This document shows positions 14,469 through 20,652 of a stretch of 64,000 bases of DNA, piece after piece. Below the pieces are notes generated by a model that was not told where the DNA came from, did not search any database, and worked only from the letters and a program-made list of their open reading frames with translations. Source of the DNA: Naegleria gruberi (lineage: Eukaryota); NCBI GenBank assembly GCA_000004985.1, contig GG738891.1. One strand, 5' to 3'. The position numbers were made by a program, and so were the translations under genes. Each line of letters opens with the position of its first letter. The first letter of the stretch is position 1.

Positions 14469-15980
14469 TTATTCTTTCACATTGTCAAAATCCTTGATAG
14501 AATAAATGGAACAAGTATCTAATATGAAATCTCGCATGTAGAGAAAGTTTTTAGCATATTTTAGGCATTTCTTATTGATTCGAATAGCCTTTCTTATAAA
14601 TGCCTCGTTAGTCGAATAATCTGATTCAATTAAGGAAATGGCAAAGTCGTCATCGTTCTTGATTGCTTCCAACATGATATCTTCATCACATCTTGCTTTT
14701 TCTAACTCTTCATATCTCAATGAATGAAATTTCGTCAAGTTTCTAATTTTTCCATAAATAACTTCCTTTGACGAACCAATCGATTGGTGTTTTCTCATCC
14801 AAAAATCAATTCCAACACGTGGAATCCAAATATCTTGTTCATTATCTACTTGTTGTGGAAGATTAGTTGTCAGTTGTTGTTGAACTTGAAGAGAAGCAAA
14901 TTTCAAAGCATCTAGATTTTGGTCAACTGCACTTTTTACAATATCATAATCTGATTTGAATTTCTCAAGAGTAAATTCTAAAGCAAGAGGGTGGTTTCTA
15001 ATAGCTGTTAAATTAATGAGCTCGCTGTCTAGAAGAGGAGGTTTAACAAACTCTAACGCTCGTCCGTCTTGGTTGACTGCGATCATTACAATTGTTTCGT
15101 TGAAACTCTTGATGGAATCATGAGCATATTCTAATTCTAACCCATTTTTCTTGACCAGTTCAGTGACGATGAGTTCATTATTATTGTGAGCTTTCAGATA
15201 TTTTAGAAATTTCGGATAAACTTTCTTCTTGATGCAATTCAATACGAAATTCACTTCCTTCACTAGAGGAGTAATTTCCAGAATGGAAGGTTCTTTCAAT
15301 ACAGCTCTAGTGACTAATTCTTCATTAGTTTTCAATGAAACATCCACAAATCTAATGCAGTTTCCATTTAGTTTTACACATTTCAAAGCAAAATCAAAGT
15401 TTCGTCTCAAATCTTCATGAGCAAATGTCAAATTTACAGGTTTAATCTTCACTGCCTCATAAATCATCTGCTCATCCCTACAAAACTCTTCATTCATTTC
15501 GAATATTTCCTTAACTAATTCTCCTCCACCACTTTCCAAAGCTTTCAATGCAACTATTCGATTCTTCTTTAATTTTTCACTCAAAAATCTATACGAATCA
15601 CCCTCACTCTTCACAGCAGCCAACCCAAACTCAAAATCATCTTTAAACTCAACTGGCATTTCTCTAATAAACAACCCAAATTGACCCAAACATTCCTTTA
15701 TAAAAATTCGATCCGTTATCAAATCTTGTGGAATTTTCTTCATCAAATACTTGGGTCCATATATTCTAGTGAGAGAAAACGCCAAAATCTTTGTGTATTT
15801 CATGGTTTGTAGTTCGTGTGATGATTGTTGGAAAACTGATCGGAGGAGAAAACTCTTGAAAGTTTGATCGAGAATGAGTTGAACGGAAGTTTCGTCCAAA
15901 TCATCTTCTTGATGTGAAATCATTTTTTTTGAAGCTTGAATTTGTTGAATTAAACACGGTGTTATTAGTTGGACTAACAT
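14469..15980 (-). CDS. DUF4116-repeat protein
   Basis: A 503-aa single-exon ORF with ATG at 15980. It has tandem ~30-aa repeats of the form …LVKKNGLELEYAHDSIK…IVMIAVNQDGRALEFVKPPLL…IVKSAVDQNLDALKFASLQ…, matching the DUF4116 repeat pattern (vkqNG.aLqya…e.vl.AV.qng.al.y). Confidence 0.5.
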   Translation of the reverse strand: MLVQLITPCLIQQIQASKKMISHQEDDLDETSVQLILDQTFKSFLLRSVFQQSSHELQTMKYTKILAFSLTRIYGPKYLMKKIPQDLITDRIFIKECLGQFGLFIREMPVEFKDDFEFGLAAVKSEGDSYRFLSEKLKKNRIVALKALESGGGELVKEIFEMNEEFCRDEQMIYEAVKIKPVNLTFAHEDLRRNFDFALKCVKLNGNCIRFVDVSLKTNEELVTRAVLKEPSILEITPLVKEVNFVLNCIKKKVYPKFLKYLKAHNNNELIVTELVKKNGLELEYAHDSIKSFNETIVMIAVNQDGRALEFVKPPLLDSELINLTAIRNHPLALEFTLEKFKSDYDIVKSAVDQNLDALKFASLQVQQQLTTNLPQQVDNEQDIWIPRVGIDFWMRKHQSIGSSKEVIYGKIRNLTKFHSLRYEELEKARCDEDIMLEAIKNDDDFAISLIESDYSTNEAFIRKAIRINKKCLKYAKNFLYMRDFILDTCSIYSIKDFDNVKE

Positions 15981-16182: not shown

Positions 16183-16208
16183 TTATTCGAAACTCAATTA
16201 CAAAAAAA
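16183..16208 (+). promoter_or_regulatory. Conserved leader motif (T/C)ATTATTCGAAACTCAA followed by oligo-A and ATG; further copies at 21781-21802, 30065-30090 (minus) and 13237-13254 (minus, within a CDS), and a variant at 20917-20931
   Basis: At 16183 the sequence is CTTTATTCGAAACTCAATTACAAAAAAAATG. At 21781 it is CATTATTCGAAACTCAAAAAAAATG. At 30064-30090 the reverse complement gives the same. At 13237 the reverse complement is CATCATTATTCGAAACTCAAGAAACTCAAG, coding …SLFETQETQ…. The variant CCTTTCGAATAATGG lies inside the arm-specific 52-bp indel at ~20917. Confidence 0.35.
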
Positions 16209-16964
16209 ATGTCAACACTTCAAAATCTCTGCAAACACTATCTGACAGCTCTTGATTCTGCCTTTCAACAAGCACTTGATTATTATCAAGAAATCAACGA
16301 TCAAACAAATGGTTGGGTCAATTACAAAACTACACCTGAACAAGCTCAGTATTTCATTAACAAGAAGAAACATTCGTATTGGATTTGGATGGGAGAAATG
16401 AAGAATGTGGAGATTCCAGAAAGTATTGCCAAAAATTCAAGAGATTTGATCAAGTATTTGGATGAGGAAAGTGAACGAAAGTTGTGGGATGAAGAATTTG
16501 TATCAGGTGTAAAAATTCATGACAAGATTGAAAAGAATTGTAACGAAACTTGTAAGAACGGAAGTGATCATTCTGATTTTAATGTTTATTATAGAGTTTT
16601 CACAGTAGGATCCAAAGCAGTTTCGAATAGAGAATTCGTCATTTCTAGAAATATTTATCAAGATCCAAAGTTGGAAAATGTAACTTGGATGTGCAATCAA
16701 ACACCTTTAGATTTTCCAGATTATGAACACAAGAAGGCACCTACAAATTCATCATGTGTTAGAGGAACAGTTCATGTCACTGCTTGGAGATTCGAACAGT
16801 TGAAATCTTCCATTTCTGGAAAATCTGTTTTTAACATTTCTGTAATTAGTCATTCTGAACCTGGTGGATGGGTGACTGCTTCTTTTTTCAATAATGGAGC
16901 AGGAGATCGTCCAGCATCAGCCGTTGTGAGATTAGTCAAATATTTACAAAGTAAACAAAACTAG
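16209..16964 (+). CDS. START (StAR-related lipid-transfer) domain protein
   Basis: The first true ATG is at 16209, immediately after an aaaaaaaa run. The ORF track start at 16125 is not an ATG. START-like sequence includes …FNVYYRVFTVGSKAVSNREFVISRNIYQD…SCVRGTVHVTAWRFEQL…PGGWVTASFFNNGAGDRPASAVVRLVKYLQ. The motif TTTATTCGAAACTCAA lies 10-25 nt upstream of the ATG. Confidence 0.5.
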   Translation: MSTLQNLCKHYLTALDSAFQQALDYYQEINDQTNGWVNYKTTPEQAQYFINKKKHSYWIWMGEMKNVEIPESIAKNSRDLIKYLDEESERKLWDEEFVSGVKIHDKIEKNCNETCKNGSDHSDFNVYYRVFTVGSKAVSNREFVISRNIYQDPKLENVTWMCNQTPLDFPDYEHKKAPTNSSCVRGTVHVTAWRFEQLKSSISGKSVFNISVISHSEPGGWVTASFFNNGAGDRPASAVVRLVKYLQSKQN

Positions 16965-17023
16965 TTTTCAATTTTTTAAAAAAAACCCAAAAATTTTACG
17001 ATTTTTCATCATTACAAAAAAAA

Positions 17024-19834
17024 ATGAATGAACAGGAACCGATTCTCTCCACCACAGGTCGTCTCGCCAATGCTCCCTACAAAATCTTCGATTGGGATCA
17101 AGAGGAGCCTCCTCTCTCTCGTGAAAAAGCCATTGAAAATCTAATGCAAGCGGAATATTACAACTACACTGTTGAGGAGATTATCGAGGAAGGTATTGAT
17201 CCAAATGAATATGGAAGGGCAAGGTTTATTTCCGAAGCCTTGATCATGATGGAAAATACGGGTGATGATGAGAAGGAAAATCAAGTAAAAAAACAACCAT
17301 CAACAATAAGAAGAGAAGATGATGATGAACCAAAGTTTTGGAGGAGAAGGGACTTGTTGATTCCTGGACAATCAATTCAAATTCCTTCAAAGATTACGAC
17401 AGTGCACTTGTTGAAGGAAAAACCGATTGAACATCAAGAGAAAAGTGGTGATGATTATGATAATGATTATGAGGAAGATAATGAGGAAAAGGAAAGCCAG
17501 GATGTTGAAACAATTATCAATCAAGATCGTTGTATTTATATTGGAAGTTTACTATCCCGAACAGAATGTAGTGATTTGATTGATTCCACATCAAGATTGG
17601 GATATGCAGAAATTGATAAGGAATATCCAAAGGAATATCGTAATAGTGAGAGAGTTTTGGTCAAGAGTAAGAAACTTGCGGACATGATTTGGTCTCGAAT
17701 TGTTCCATTCTTGAAAAAGTCTGATATTGATGGTGTGAAACCTTATGGTTTTGATAATGATGGTTGTTGGGTTCCTTGTGGAATTAATGAAGTATTGAGA
17801 TTCAACAAGTATAGTCGTGGAACTTTCTTTAAACCTCACACTGATGCTCAATTCGTTAGAAATGATAATGAAAAATCAATCTTCACAGTGTTGGTCTATT
17901 TGAGCGACTCTTCTGCAGCTACAACCCTTCTGAAAAAGGTTGGAGAGAAGATTGAGGATGATAGTATTTCCTTTGATTTCAAAAAGTTGGCATCCATCAA
18001 ACCAACAGAAGGAAGTGTTGGTAAGTTGAATAGATTAATGATTCTAAATAATAATTTAAAGCTATTTTTAACCATGATCTCTATCATGACGGCCAAAAAC
18101 TATACTATGGATCAAAGTATGTTGTGAGAAGTGAAATCATCTTCAAGAGAATTGATAAGGATAGCATTTATAGAATGGATTATAGAAATAGTGAAGAATT
18201 CAAACGAGTAAAGAACCTCATTGATGATAGCTACGAGTTGGAACGTCAAGGTAATTTAACTCAATCCACCATCAAATATATCCAAGCTATGGACTTGCAG
18301 ACATCCTTGTCCCACTCCATTCAAAGAAAATCAAATAGAAAATTGAGTTTTATTGAAGAAAATCTTCCTGAAGAGGTATTCGTTCACATATTTAACTATT
18401 TAACGGATGAAGAAGTTTGTACGAGTGTCATTCCTATCAATTCTGAAATTAATTCAATTGCTAGAAATGAAACCATGTGGGAACAAAGATTTTCAAAAAA
18501 GTGGGGATCTGAAACAATGGAAAAGTCAATTCTTGATAGAGTCATTAGATATGAATATGATGAAAATTATGAACCTACAAATGAAGAGAAGATTGAATTT
18601 CATAGTAAGGAAAATGAAATTATCAATCTTCTTCAAAAAGATACTCACGATTGGTATAATGCATTTTCTTGCAGATCAAATATGGAAAAATCTTTCAATG
18701 CTGTACTTTTAGATCTTGGGCAGCATACTTACAAGTATGGATTAGCAAGTAATAATGCCTATTGGAGATCAATGACAGCTGTCGGTGAACCTAATCATCC
18801 TCACTTTTATTTACCATCCTATGGATTTGACGATGTTATAACAGGAGATAGATTTGTTCAAGCTCAATACCATTGTAGATTGAACAAGTTCTTTAACTCT
18901 AAAGGAGTACCCAAGAAGAAACTGCTCAAAATTTTCCTTTATCAGCTCTATAAGGAAGATTTAAGAGTTAACTTACAAGAACACCCTCTTCTTATGGCTG
19001 TGCCTCCTCACTGGGATAAGGAATACTTGAAAAAGGTGGAACAGGTTGCAGTAAGTTCTCTATATTGCAAATTATATTTAATTTCATTGATAGTTTTCTT
19101 TAGGTATTCCAGCAGTTCACTTTGTGGACTCGTTCAAGCTACTTGCATTGTATTATCAAAAACCAACATCCTTAATTATTAGTGCAACACCAAATGGATC
19201 GACATGTGTACCAGTCATAGATTGTGAGTCTAAGACTGCATGTATGGATATGAATGTGTTTAACATGTACGAGGAGTATAGGAATATGAATGAAGATATG
19301 CGCTATTATGAAATGACTTTCAGAGAGGAAGTATCAGAATTTTTGAAAATTGCCCCTTGCAGTCCGAGCCAAGATCAAAAAGAATTTAATGAATTTGTAC
19401 AAAACCTTGAACCTTTCGAATGGACTTCATACATGGTTTCACCAATCAATGAAAGAGCCAATATTTCGGAAATTTTCTACTCTCATGTATGGGAAAATGT
19501 CCAAAAATCAATCACCTTAATTCGAAATAATCAATCTCTTTCCAATATTGAAAAAGATCAAATTCTAAACAATATTTTAATTGTAGGTGGATTCTCAGCA
19601 TTAACAGGATTTAGAGAAAGAATTAAGAAGGACATTTTGGAATATCTTGGACAAGAATACTCTCCATCATTTACTTTTAGAGAACAGAAGGCTGATTATT
19701 CTGTCAGAAAAACAGGTATCAAGGTCAGCATTGTTGGACAAGATATGGACGTAGTTGGAGGAGCTAGAATTGTTTCCAATCTCTCAAACTTTAGAGAAAT
19801 TTGTAGTTACAATCAAGCATATAACAAGTATTAA
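17024..19834 (+). CDS. Fusion-architecture protein: N-terminal 2OG-Fe(II) prolyl-4-hydroxylase domain, central F-box, C-terminal divergent actin-related (Arp-like) domain; 3 exons, about 908 aa
   Basis: Exon 1 is 17024..18020 (…GTTG|GTAAGT, phase 1), intron 1 is 18021..18061 (41 nt) and exon 2 is 18062..19050. Intron 2 is 19051..19093 (GTAAGT…ATTGATAG, 43 nt) and exon 3 is 19094..19834. The P4H motifs are LRFNKYSRGTFFKPHTDAQF (HxD) …IFTVLVYLSD… in exon 1, and NHDLYHDGQKLYYGSKYVVRSE (second His + Lys/Arg) at the start of exon 2. That same uninterrupted exon-2 frame then runs through an F-box (LPEEVFVHIFNYLTDEEVCTSVIPINSEINSIARNETMWEQRF) into actin-fold sequence (AVLLDLGQHTYKYGLASNNAYW…EDLRVNLQEHPLLMAVPPHWDKEYLKKVEQVA). 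Exon 3 continues the actin fold (FSLGIPAVHFVDSFKLLALYY…NNILIVGGFSALTGFRERIKKDI…GIKVSIVGQDMDVVGGARIVSNL). Confidence 0.5.
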
Positions 19835-19938
19835 ATAGACAACCATTTATTAAATTATATCATGTAATATTTTCCAGACAAATTGACATTCTATTGAATT
19901 GTTTCGAAATAGTGATCATGGCTGGAATTTTAACCGAT

Positions 19939-20652
19939 TTATTTTGAAGGTGTGTGATTTACAAATTCCCACTTTCTCTTTCTTGGAATAGTTACTGGTT
20001 CTGTTGTTTCCAAAATTGGTTGGTATTGGATATTTTCATATGCAGTTATATTTTTTCTTAGTTCTGCCCTTGCACTGTTTTCATAGTCGTTTTTGTTGAT
20101 GATAATTACATTATATTCGAAATTACGACAGAGTGGCCTAAAAAACTTTCCTTGAATTTCTAAATAAATTCTTCCTTTGTAGTTTTTGCATTGGGGATAT
20201 TGAGAGATGATATGGATTGCACGATATGCTGTTTCTTTTTTTGGAAAAGTAATAGTTGAAGTTCCAAGCAACGTCAAATCTCTACTTTTTTTAGGTTTGT
20301 GTTTACCATAAATTAGCATTTCAAAACATAATTCAGAAGAATTTTTGCTACAAATAATTTTGAAATCATTGTGAACTGTTTGAATTTCGCTTTTGCTTGG
20401 CAAGATGTTAATGCTAGATGACATTGGCATTTGTTGAGCGGTTTGTTGATTTTGAATTTGTGAGACGTTTTGCAATTGATTTTCATATGGCATATGAATT
20501 AATGTTGGTTGCCGATTCCAGAATTGAGTGTTAATTTTGAAACTCAGTAACTTCATCCTGATAGAGGATAGTTGAGAGTGGTGAGAATATCGAGGGACTT
20601 GAGGCAGTGTTATTGGATGTAACTTGGTGAGTATTATCGGTGATATCTTCAT
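19939..20652 (-). CDS. Hypothetical protein, paralog A of a diverged gene pair (paralog B is 32389..33021)
   Basis: A 237-aa ORF with ATG at 20652 (MKISPIILTKLHPITLPQVPRYSHHSQLSS…). It shares its N-terminal ~30 aa and scattered motifs (PYENQ.QNVS…QQTAQQMPMS…IYLEI.G.F) with the plus-strand ORF at 32389. There are no recognisable domains. Confidence 0.4.
   Translation of the reverse strand: MKISPIILTKLHPITLPQVPRYSHHSQLSSIRMKLLSFKINTQFWNRQPTLIHMPYENQLQNVSQIQNQQTAQQMPMSSSINILPSKSEIQTVHNDFKIICSKNSSELCFEMLIYGKHKPKKSRDLTLLGTSTITFPKKETAYRAIHIISQYPQCKNYKGRIYLEIQGKFFRPLCRNFEYNVIIINKNDYENSARAELRKNITAYENIQYQPILETTEPVTIPRKRKWEFVNHTPSK

What the first reader, a model, noticed from the sequence alone, without database searches (positions are those of the whole stretch)
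17024..19834. One reading frame fuses a prolyl-4-hydroxylase domain, an F-box and an actin-related domain
After splicing two short canonical introns (18021-18061 and 19051-19093), a single ~908-codon frame is obtained. Exon 2 alone, an uninterrupted 989-nt frame, holds three things in sequence. First is the C-terminal catalytic half of a 2OG-Fe(II) prolyl hydroxylase (second iron-binding His plus the 2OG-binding basic residue, HDGQKLYYGSKYVVRSE, pairing with the HxD motif FKPHTDAQF in exon 1). Second is a textbook F-box (LPEEVFVHIFNYLTDEEV…WEQRF). Third is the N-terminal half of a divergent actin fold, which continues in exon 3. In dictyostelids the cytoplasmic prolyl hydroxylase PhyA modifies Skp1, and Skp1 is the adaptor that F-box proteins bind. 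A P4H covalently fused to an F-box would be a Rosetta-stone-type fusion linking Skp1 hydroxylation to SCF substrate receptors, with an Arp-like module as a possible cargo or substrate domain. I am not aware of this architecture being described.
Basis: partly seen in the sequence, partly recalled or inferred. Interest (0 to 1): 0.75.

Follow-up and report, generated by a model that had tools for sequence, protein, structure and literature searches.

The report
Hydroxylase–F-box–actin-fold protein of Naegleria
This is a real gene of the amoeba Naegleria gruberi, uncharacterised so far, in which one protein joins an oxygen-using prolyl-hydroxylase-type enzyme, an F-box (the handle that plugs proteins into SCF ubiquitin ligases) and a divergent actin-like domain; the same three-part design also occurs in a slime mould, a chytrid fungus and uncultured eukaryotes, but the enzyme is not the known Skp1 hydroxylase PhyA.

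Summary
Removing two GT..AG introns (18021-18061, 19051-19093) gives one 908-codon frame. From M41 it is identical to the public model NAEGRDRAFT_80947 of Naegleria gruberi, so the organism is not a dictyostelid.

All three domains hold up:
- **F-box:** the family profile hits FBXL5, Cdc4, KDM2B and Skp2.
- **Actin fold:** complete (Pfam 49.5 bits; TM 0.77 to actin), but the residues for ATP hydrolysis are degenerate.

The fusion is not a gene-model artefact. The collinear architecture recurs in N. lovaniensis, N. fowleri, Willaertia, a Physarum transcript, the chytrid Rhizophlyctis, and as intron-less ORFs on metagenome contigs.

The PhyA/Skp1 "Rosetta stone" reading is not supported. The oxygenase is no closer to PhyA than to other prolyl hydroxylases, and it belongs to a family with free-standing bacterial and giant-virus members.

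The most likely function is a Skp1-docked oxygenase with an actin-fold partner-binding module. This resembles KDM2A/B and Dictyostelium JcdI, with plant ARP8 as the F-box–Arp precedent. It is a new variant of a known kind, and the substrate is unknown.

The parts
17024..19834 (+). Whole gene (NAEGRDRAFT_80947): 3 exons, 908 codons plus stop. The start at 17024 is 40 codons upstream of the public model's start (M41 = 17144).
   Evidence: Splice model and translation. 100% identity to P0001 from M41. Orthologue N-termini align to aa 14-27 of the longer model. 17024 is the first start codon after an in-frame stop.
18021..18061 (+). Intron 1 (41 nt, GTAAGT..AAG). It lies inside the oxygenase domain.
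   Evidence: The junction VAIFNHD is conserved in all orthologues. Retaining the intron terminates the frame at 18127. A related-strain contig (P0009) reads through an intron at the same position.
19051..19093 (+). Intron 2 (43 nt, GTAAGT..TAG). It lies inside the actin-like domain.
   Evidence: The junction AFSLGIPAV is conserved in orthologues.
17024..17512 (+). N-terminal region (aa 1-163). It is mostly low-complexity and acidic, with a motif conserved in the Naegleria and Willaertia members, EPKFWRRxDLLIPG..I.I....TV.LL.
   Evidence: Alignment. Short beta-strands at moderate pLDDT in the full-length model. No Pfam match above threshold.
17513..18162 (+). P4H-type 2OG/Fe(II) dioxygenase domain (aa 164-366, interrupted by intron 1). 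Fe ligands: H272 (17837-17839), D274 (17843-17845), H341 (18085-18087). 2OG-binding K351 (18115-18117). R355 is conserved.
18163..18336 (+). Conserved helical hairpin linker (aa 367-424), a TPR-like pair of helices: EEFKRVKNLIDDSYELERQGNLTQSTIKYIQAMDLQ.
   Evidence: Two helices at pLDDT above 90. Conserved in Physarum, the chytrid, metagenomic members and giant-virus homologues.
18337..18510 (+). F-box (aa 425-482; core LPEEVFVHIFNYL... starts at aa 434).
   Evidence: Pfam F-box-like, 19.5 bits, aa 433-474. The family profile hits only F-box proteins in the PDB down to E 0.13: FBXL5 5.6e-9, FBXW, FBXO4, Cdc4, KDM2B, Skp2.
18511..18651 (+). Variable acidic spacer (aa 483-529). It ends in the conserved DWY motif that precedes the actin fold.
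   Evidence: Alignments.
18652..19831 (+). Divergent, complete actin-fold domain (aa 530-908, interrupted by intron 2). The phosphate-1 D..G...K motif and the adenosine GG motif are kept. Q137, D154/D157 and H161 equivalents are lost.
   Evidence: Pfam Actin, 49.5 bits. phmmer to actins, E 8e-7 over aa 540-845. Foldseek to actin, E 1e-18, TMt 0.77, about 390 columns. Motif table.

Best explanation
This is a genuine single gene of Naegleria gruberi (NAEGRDRAFT_80947). It belongs to a conserved eukaryotic family whose proteins have a fixed order of parts:

1. An N-terminal prolyl-4-hydroxylase-type 2OG/Fe(II) dioxygenase with an intact catalytic centre.
2. A two-helix hairpin.
3. An F-box.
4. 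A complete but divergent actin fold that has lost the residues needed for ATP hydrolysis.

**Shown.** The gene structure, the three domains, the intact Fe/2OG ligands, and collinear conservation of the architecture in Heterolobosea, an amoebozoan (Physarum) and a chytrid fungus.

**Inferred.** The F-box docks the protein on Skp1, either in an SCF ubiquitin ligase or in a non-SCF Skp1 complex. The actin-fold domain sits C-terminal to the F-box, where F-box proteins carry their substrate-binding module. It probably acts as a non-polymerising partner- or substrate-binding domain for actin, Arps or actin-binding proteins. The oxygenase would hydroxylate a residue, most likely a proline, of a protein held in that complex, in an O2-, Fe(II)- and 2OG-dependent way. 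Ubiquitylation, or the protein's own turnover, would thereby be coupled to oxygen and metabolic state.

In layout it works like KDM2A/B (JmjC oxygenase - F-box - LRR) and like Dictyostelium JcdI/FBXO13. It is not an orthologue of the Skp1 hydroxylase PhyA.
For: **Gene structure.**

**Domains.**
- Pfam. PDB sequence search.
- F-box profile against solved F-box proteins.
- Oxygenase model (pLDDT 95). Prolyl-hydroxylase fold matches.
- Actin fold.
- Catalytic H272/D274/H341/K351 are invariant across 40 homologues.

**The fusion is real and old.**
- The same three domains occur in N. lovaniensis, N. fowleri and Willaertia.
- They also occur in a Physarum polycephalum transcript, P0175. It gives a single collinear BLASTP alignment over aa 130-803 of the public model (aa 170-843 here), E 6e-55.
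- They occur in the chytrid Rhizophlyctis rosea, P0155.
- They occur in metagenomic members that are single uninterrupted ORFs: L003 is 811 aa on a 24-kb eukaryotic contig, and L001/L002 are 818 aa.
- In all, 31 fetched proteins, counting fragments and alternative gene models, match the family oxygenase, F-box and actin-like profiles, always in the same order.

**Precedents for Skp1-tethered oxygenases.** JcdI binds Skp1 through its F-box and is an O2-dependent dioxygenase (PMC9485057). KDM2A/B F-boxes are among the PDB hits.

**Degenerate ATPase residues.**
Against: - No experiment or transcript from Naegleria itself was available. Skp1 binding, catalytic activity and the substrate are all inferred.
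- The F-box of this particular copy scores below Pfam's cut-off (19.5 against 24.3 bits).
- The full-length AlphaFold model is poor (pLDDT 64, pTM 0.47). Nothing can be said about how the domains face each other.
- Work on JcdI showed that the F-box can be dispensable for an oxygenase's biological effect (PMC9485057), so the substrate-receptor reading may be wrong.
- The fold does not prove that the hydroxylated residue is a proline. Lysyl hydroxylases and PiuC/OGFOD1-type enzymes are only slightly more distant.
Confidence: 0.55

Rival explanations
1. One reading: the fused hydroxylase is a PhyA-like enzyme that hydroxylates Skp1 itself. The F-box holds Skp1 in place, so the fusion would be a Rosetta stone for the PhyA-Skp1 pathway.
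For: - The F-box would bring Skp1 close to the active site.
- Skp1 prolyl hydroxylation exists in protists (PMC9485057, PMC11570480).
Against: - No sequence similarity to PhyA or PHD2 is detectable with the family profile, even at E <= 10. Collagen-type and bacterial P4Hs are found instead.
- Identity to PhyA is 14%, against 20-22% to collagen-type P4Hs.
- The invariant 2OG-binding residue is a Lys ten residues after the second His. From my own knowledge, this is the collagen-P4H pattern rather than the Arg of PHD/PhyA.
- The closest relatives are free-standing bacterial and giant-virus enzymes, which have no Skp1.
- Whether Naegleria Skp1 carries the target proline, or has a PhyA/Gnt1 pathway, could not be checked here.
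Confidence: 0.1
2. The protein is primarily an enzyme. Its F-box serves only to regulate its own abundance, through Skp1 binding and auto-ubiquitylation, as proposed for JcdI. On this view the actin fold targets the enzyme to the actin cytoskeleton or to actin itself as substrate, rather than presenting substrates to an SCF ligase.
For: - In JcdI the F-box is not needed for the overexpression phenotype, and it appears to control protein level (PMC9485057).
- The actin-like domain keeps the whole actin fold, so it could pair with actin or Arps.
- Naegleria encodes many paralogues, including short forms that lack most of the actin fold (P0013, P0105). This suggests the oxygenase + F-box pair is the core unit.
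Against: There is no direct evidence. The strictly conserved position of the actin fold C-terminal to the F-box is the classical substrate-receptor layout.
Confidence: 0.25
3. Artefact: two or three neighbouring genes wrongly merged by choosing convenient splice sites, or a decaying pseudogene.
For: No Naegleria transcript data could be examined. The public database holds only a computational model.
Against: - All domain boundaries (oxygenase-linker, linker-F-box, F-box-actin) lie inside the single uninterrupted exon 2. The introns lie inside domains, not between them.
- The linker is conserved at the protein level.
- Catalytic residues are invariant.
- The same collinear protein is a single ORF without introns in other organisms and a single transcript in Physarum.
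Confidence: 0.02

Closest known systems
KDM2A/KDM2B (FBXL11/FBXL10): JmjC 2OG oxygenase - (CXXC, PHD) - F-box - LRR
   Same: The order of parts is the same: an N-terminal 2OG/Fe(II) oxygenase, an internal F-box that binds Skp1, and a C-terminal protein-interaction domain. KDM2A and KDM2B F-boxes are hit by the family F-box profile.
   Different: The oxygenase there is JmjC-type (a histone lysine demethylase), not P4H-type. The C-terminal module is leucine-rich repeats, not an actin fold. There are no DNA- or chromatin-binding domains here.
Dictyostelium JcdI/JcdH and Toxoplasma FBXO13 (F-box + JmjD6-like dioxygenase)
   Same: These are protist F-box proteins that are themselves O2-dependent 2OG dioxygenases. 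Skp1 binding through the F-box was shown experimentally, and they are conserved across protists (PMC9485057, PMC11570480).
   Different: The F-box is N-terminal to a JmjC domain. There is no actin fold, and the oxygenase belongs to a different subfamily.
Plant ARP8 (F-box + actin-related protein; Kandasamy et al. 2008, cited in PMC8066076)
   Same: It is the only described case I know of an F-box immediately followed by an actin-family domain.
   Different: It has no oxygenase domain and is plant-specific. None of the 20 proteins I named among the 150 best hits of the exhaustive F-box+actin profile search came from a plant. Homology of the two fusions could not be tested, because no ARP8 sequence was at hand.
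PhyA / HIF-type prolyl hydroxylases (EGLN/PHD family)
   Different: Identity is 14%, and the sequence profile does not detect them. The 2OG-binding residue is a Lys at +10 rather than an Arg (own knowledge). The relation is superfamily-level only.
Collagen-type / bacterial / viral prolyl 4-hydroxylases (PBCV-1 vCPH, Chlamydomonas P4H-1, Bacillus anthracis P4H)
   Different: The match is still remote. The present domain has its own subfamily, with free-standing ~180-aa bacterial members and a C-terminal helical hairpin shared with giant-virus homologues. No peptide-substrate-binding features could be compared.

Membership tests
2OG/Fe(II) dioxygenases, P4H-like (Pfam PF13640 2OG-FeII_Oxy_3) | Pfam profile match above the gathering score | tested here: met
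   29.9 bits against a cut-off of 27. All 9 family members match.
2OG/Fe(II) dioxygenases, P4H-like (Pfam PF13640 2OG-FeII_Oxy_3) | HxD...H iron-binding triad and a basic 2OG-binding residue | tested here: met
   H272, D274, H341 and K351 are invariant in 8 family members and in 40 homologues, bacterial ones included.
2OG/Fe(II) dioxygenases, P4H-like (Pfam PF13640 2OG-FeII_Oxy_3) | Double-stranded beta-helix fold closest to prolyl hydroxylases | tested here: met
2OG/Fe(II) dioxygenases, P4H-like (Pfam PF13640 2OG-FeII_Oxy_3) | Catalytic turnover of 2OG / hydroxylation of proline | not testable with these tools
   This needs an enzyme assay.
PhyA-type Skp1 prolyl hydroxylase (PHD/EGLN family) | Specific sequence relationship to PhyA/PHD2, closer than to other P4Hs | tested here: not met
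   The profile search of the PDB at E <= 10 returns only collagen-type/bacterial P4Hs. Identity to PhyA is 14%, against 22% to PBCV-1 vCPH.
PhyA-type Skp1 prolyl hydroxylase (PHD/EGLN family) | Hydroxylates the conserved Skp1 proline | not testable with these tools
The literature search found nothing on Naegleria.
F-box proteins | F-box motif of about 45 residues (LPxE..(I/L)F..L ... LW) | tested here: met
   The family profile hits FBXL5 at E 5.6e-9, and also Cdc4, FBXO4, KDM2B and Skp2. This copy alone scores 19.5 bits, below the cut-off of 24.3.
F-box proteins | Binds Skp1 | not testable with these tools
   This needs co-immunoprecipitation or co-expression.
Actin / actin-related proteins (Pfam PF00022) | Profile match and a complete four-subdomain actin fold | tested here: met
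   49.5 bits against a cut-off of 27. Aligns to actin residues 1-319. Foldseek TMt 0.77 over about 390 columns.
Actin / actin-related proteins (Pfam PF00022) | Nucleotide-binding and hydrolysis residues (phosphate-1 DxGSG..K, Q137, phosphate-2 DSGDG, H161, adenosine GG) | tested here: inconclusive
   D11, G13 and K18 equivalents and the GG motif are kept. The domain may bind nucleotide but probably does not hydrolyse it.
Plant ARP8 (F-box-Arp) | Orthology of the F-box + actin-like module | not tested
   No ARP8 sequence was available. None of the 20 named hits is a plant protein.

The most novel reading that the evidence does not exclude
This would be an ancient family of oxygen- and 2OG-sensing SCF ubiquitin-ligase receptors. 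It is found in eukaryotes known to me to have both amoeboid and flagellated stages (Naegleria, Willaertia, Physarum, chytrids). A pseudo-actin domain would capture actin, Arps or actin-binding proteins. A built-in prolyl hydroxylase would mark them, or gate their ubiquitylation. That would directly couple oxygen and metabolic state to remodelling of the actin cytoskeleton.
Probability: 0.15. Interest if true: 0.8.

Novelty: new variant of a known kind. Interest (0 to 1): 0.55.

Why it matters
F-box proteins that are themselves 2OG oxygenases (KDM2A/B, JcdI/FBXO13) are a small class, notable for tying oxygen and metabolite sensing to Skp1. This family would add a third, independent case that uses a prolyl-hydroxylase-type enzyme. 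It is also the first case in which the partner-binding module is an actin fold.

The architecture is collinear in Discoba, Amoebozoa and Fungi. It is therefore either very old or has spread repeatedly. It is expanded in Naegleria: at least six three-domain models in N. lovaniensis and several in N. gruberi.

It gives concrete, testable hypotheses:
- Does the protein bind Skp1?
- Does the oxygenase turn over 2OG?
- What does the actin fold bind?

These concern organisms in which oxygen sensing and actin-based motility are both of interest, including the pathogen N. fowleri.

Tried and rejected
1. **Full-length AlphaFold model (A5).** pLDDT 64 and pTM 0.47. This is too poor to read domain-domain contacts, so I used it only for the actin-fold match.
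2. **Structure prediction with the 908-aa spliced sequence.** I used the public 868-aa model instead.
3. **Word-indexed search with the F-box+actin profile.** It returned only family members. The exhaustive HMMER search was needed to find the Physarum, chytrid and metagenomic members.
4. **Transcript evidence for the Naegleria gene.** P0001 is not on record in the contig collection. An RNA-seq preprint had no held supplements.
5. **Literature.** No paper mentions the locus tag or its accessions, or the architecture. Nothing was found on Skp1 hydroxylation in Naegleria. The plant ARP8 paper is not held.
6. **AFDB50 fold search for taxonomic spread.** The library was unavailable.
7. **NCBIfam.** It gave no specific family name for the oxygenase.
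8. **Intramolecular proline target.** I considered a conserved proline in the actin-like domain (the HPHF motif in the D-loop region) as a target of the oxygenase. I rejected it as a general explanation, because the chytrid/P0223/P0142 subgroup has GHYW there instead.
9. **Gene-merger artefact.** Rejected; see the rival explanations.
Full report
**1. What is in the sequence**

I read window 16400-20400 and listed its ORFs. Three + strand ORFs (17024-18127, 18124-19182, 19124-19834) overlap the region. Joining 17024-18020, 18062-19050 and 19094-19834 removes two introns. These are 41 nt and 43 nt long, both begin GTAAGT, and they end AAG and TAG. The result is a 2727-nt frame of 908 codons plus a stop.

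The introns are 17% and 21% G+C, against 33-37% for the exons. The stop-codon frequency expected from the window's base composition is 0.070 per codon. At that rate, the 329-codon open frame of exon 2 alone has a chance probability of about 5e-11.

ATG 17024 is the first start codon after an in-frame stop. It lies 59 nt downstream of the stop of the preceding gene.

**2. Identity of the gene**

The spliced product is 100% identical, from its residue 41 onward, to an 868-aa 'predicted protein' of Naegleria gruberi (P0001; XP_002673299.1, EFC40555.1, NAEGRDRAFT_80947, UniProt D2VR76). The window is therefore Naegleria (Heterolobosea), not a dictyostelid. Both splice junctions agree with an independent annotation.

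Residues 14-27 (LANAPYKIFDWDQE) align with the N-termini of the orthologues (RALAHAPIYNWDD, RSATHFKLHHWDQ). The public model starts at M41.

**3. The three domains**

Pfam on the 908-aa product gives:

| Family | Bits | Cut-off | Residues |
|---|---|---|---|
| Actin | 49.5 | 27 | aa 544-705 (best of 2 stretches) |
| 2OG-FeII_Oxy_3 | 29.9 | 27 | aa 259-354 |
| F-box-like | 19.5 | 24.3 | aa 433-474 |

*Oxygenase.*
- H272, D274, H341, K351 and R355 are invariant among eight family members.
- H, D, H and K remain invariant when 32 more distant homologues, bacterial ones included, are added.
- An AlphaFold model of aa 160-420, built on that 40-sequence alignment, has mean pLDDT 95.3.
- A sequence profile of the domain finds only the Bacillus anthracis P4H (E 2e-4) and the Chlamydomonas P4H (E 0.18) among solved structures. 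It finds no PHD2 or PhyA, even at E <= 10.

So 'prolyl-4-hydroxylase-type oxygenase with an intact active site' is supported. 'PhyA-like' is not.

*F-box.* A profile of eleven family F-boxes hits only genuine F-box proteins in the PDB down to E 0.13: FBXL5 (E 5.6e-9), FBXW12/21, FBXO4, Cdc4, FBXW8, KDM2B, FBXL2, Skp2 and FBXW7. Among nine members, six match F-box-like at E <= 0.01.

*Actin fold.*
- phmmer aligns aa 540-845 to actin residues 1-319 (E 8e-7).
- The actin part of the otherwise poor full-length model superposes on actin over about 390 columns (Foldseek E ~1e-18, TM 0.77 on the target).
- It has replaced S14/G15, Q137, D154/D157 and H161.

This is a complete but divergent actin fold. 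It may bind nucleotide but is unlikely to hydrolyse it.

*Linker.* Between the oxygenase and the F-box lies a conserved two-helix hairpin (aa ~377-415, pLDDT above 90).

**4. Is the fusion real?**

Yes.
- Every domain boundary lies inside the single uninterrupted exon 2. The two introns interrupt domains rather than separating them.
- The linker is conserved at the protein level.
- The same three domains, in the same order, are found in six N. lovaniensis paralogues, N. fowleri and Willaertia magna.
- An exhaustive HMMER search with the F-box+actin profile, followed by Pfam scans and name look-ups, found the architecture outside Heterolobosea as well:
  - a Physarum polycephalum transcript (P0175, 785 aa);
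  - the chytrid Rhizophlyctis rosea (P0155, 784 aa);
  - four metagenomic proteins (P0099, P0125, P0223/P0240, P0142).
- BLASTP aligns the Naegleria and Physarum proteins in one collinear segment through all three domains (aa 130-803 of the public model, i.e. aa 170-843 here, against 51-710; E 6e-55). The chytrid protein aligns collinearly through the oxygenase, linker, F-box and the start of the actin fold (30% identity over 395 residues, E 5e-55).
- P0240 is a single 811-aa ORF without introns on a 24-kb eukaryotic contig (L003). P0099 and P0236 are single ORFs on 2.5-2.6-kb contigs (L001, L002).

The Physarum entry derives from a transcriptome. That is cDNA-level evidence for one mRNA, although in a homologue and not in Naegleria.

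**5. Where the oxygenase comes from**

Its closest relatives outside the fused family are free-standing proteins of about 180 aa from bacteria (Bacteroidota, Deltaproteobacteria and many metagenomic sequences), a rotifer protein, and giant-virus proteins:
- Cotonvirus P0021;
- Yasminevirus A0A5K0U7Y8, 27% identity, TM 0.83 including the helical tail.

These organisms have no Skp1, so the ancestral substrate of this oxygenase subfamily is not Skp1.

Naegleria also encodes shorter paralogues with the oxygenase, the F-box and only the first strands of the actin-like domain (P0013 of 451 aa; P0105 of 576 aa).

**6. How it most likely works**

*Shown:* a conserved protein with an apparently active P4H-type oxygenase, an F-box and an actin fold.

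*Inferred from established knowledge of F-box proteins:*
- The F-box docks on Skp1.
- The domain C-terminal to an F-box is normally the substrate- or partner-binding module. Here that role falls to the actin fold. It probably acts as a non-polymerising interaction domain for actin, Arps or actin-binding proteins.
- The N-terminal oxygenase would hydroxylate a residue, probably a proline, of a protein held in the complex, depending on O2, Fe(II) and 2OG.

The domain order matches that of KDM2A/B (JmjC - F-box - LRR). A functional precedent is Dictyostelium JcdI/FBXO13. It binds Skp1 through its F-box, is an O2-dependent dioxygenase, and seems to use the F-box mainly for control of its own level (PMC9485057; Toxoplasma FBXO13 in PMC11570480). 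I therefore keep open, as the main rival, that the F-box regulates the enzyme rather than presenting substrates.

It has no specific support (sections 3 and 5), and I give it about 0.1.

**7. Comparison with what is known, and novelty**

Each pairwise combination has a precedent:
- Oxygenase + F-box: KDM2A/B, and JcdI/JcdH/FBXO13.
- F-box + actin-related protein: plant ARP8 (Kandasamy et al. 2008, as cited in PMC8066076; the paper itself was not held).

The three-part combination with a P4H-type oxygenase was not found in the searchable literature. No paper mentions the locus tag or its accessions. In the databases the proteins are 'predicted', 'hypothetical' or automatically named by one domain.

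I class it as a new variant of a known kind: a gene that is publicly deposited but uncharacterised, from a family whose breadth (Discoba, Amoebozoa, Fungi) appears not to have been noted. Whether the F-box-actin junction is homologous to that of plant ARP8 could not be tested.

**8. Limits**

There are no Naegleria transcript data, no biochemical data and no reliable inter-domain model. The taxonomic survey is limited to the best 150 hits of one search, and only 20 of those were named. The presence of a PhyA/Gnt1 pathway in Naegleria was not examined.

**9. Verdict**

| Score | Value |
|---|---|
| Interest | 0.55 |
| Probability of the most novel reading (an oxygen-sensing SCF receptor acting on the actin cytoskeleton) | ~0.15 |
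| Interest of that reading if true | 0.8 |

Noticed in passing
window 17024-17146: The public model XP_002673299.1 starts at M41 (17144). Orthologue N-termini align to residues 14-27 encoded from ATG 17024, so the deposited model is probably 40 residues too short.
   Followed up: partly
P0004 vs P0245 (N. fowleri): The N. fowleri RefSeq model XP_044557782 (832 aa) lacks the first half of the F-box, apparently through a mis-predicted intron. The alternative model CAG4713175.1 (884 aa) contains a complete F-box.
   Followed up: partly
window 14469-15980 (-) and 16206-16961 (+): The upstream neighbours are a protein made of eight DUF4116 repeats (176 bits) and a START-domain protein (34.6 bits). 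The latter's stop lies only 59 nt before the start of the gene studied.
   Followed up: partly
window 19939-20652 (-): A 237-aa ORF converges on the 3' end of the gene. It has no Pfam match, and whether it is a real gene was not examined.
   Followed up: no
P0021 (Cotonvirus japonicus); BFVD A0A5K0U7Y8 (Yasminevirus): Giant viruses carry close homologues of the oxygenase domain, including the C-terminal two-helix hairpin (27% identity, TM 0.83 for Yasminevirus). This hints at gene exchange between amoebae, or other protists, and their viruses.
   Followed up: partly
P0013 (451 aa), P0014 (447 aa), P0105 (576 aa): These short paralogues hold the oxygenase, the F-box and only the first beta-strands of the actin-like domain. 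P0013 and P0105 are from N. gruberi. P0014, from an unnamed ENA contig, ends at the same point as P0013, so these may be genuine short forms rather than truncated models.
   Followed up: partly
P0125 (837 aa, metagenome): This family member has additional N-terminal ankyrin repeats ahead of the oxygenase-F-box-actin core.
   Followed up: no
window ~18780-18850 (aa 573-595) and homologues: The region equivalent to actin's D-loop carries a strongly conserved family signature. It is 'HPHF(Y/S)..GYG.DD' in Naegleria, Physarum and P0099. It is 'GHYW.A.SG' in the chytrid, P0223, P0142 and P0022. This defines two subgroups.
   Followed up: partly
P0009 (385 aa, ENA contig of 1558 nt): A contig from a related Naegleria strain or species (84% identical) was translated straight through an intron at the same position as intron 1. 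Its read-through tail is similar to the window's intron-retained ORF (17024-18127), so the intron position and part of its sequence are conserved.
   Followed up: no
P0120 (369 aa, origin unknown): This protein has a weak F-box, the DWY motif and a compact actin-like domain, but no oxygenase. It is either a fragment or an oxygenase-less relative of the family.
   Followed up: no
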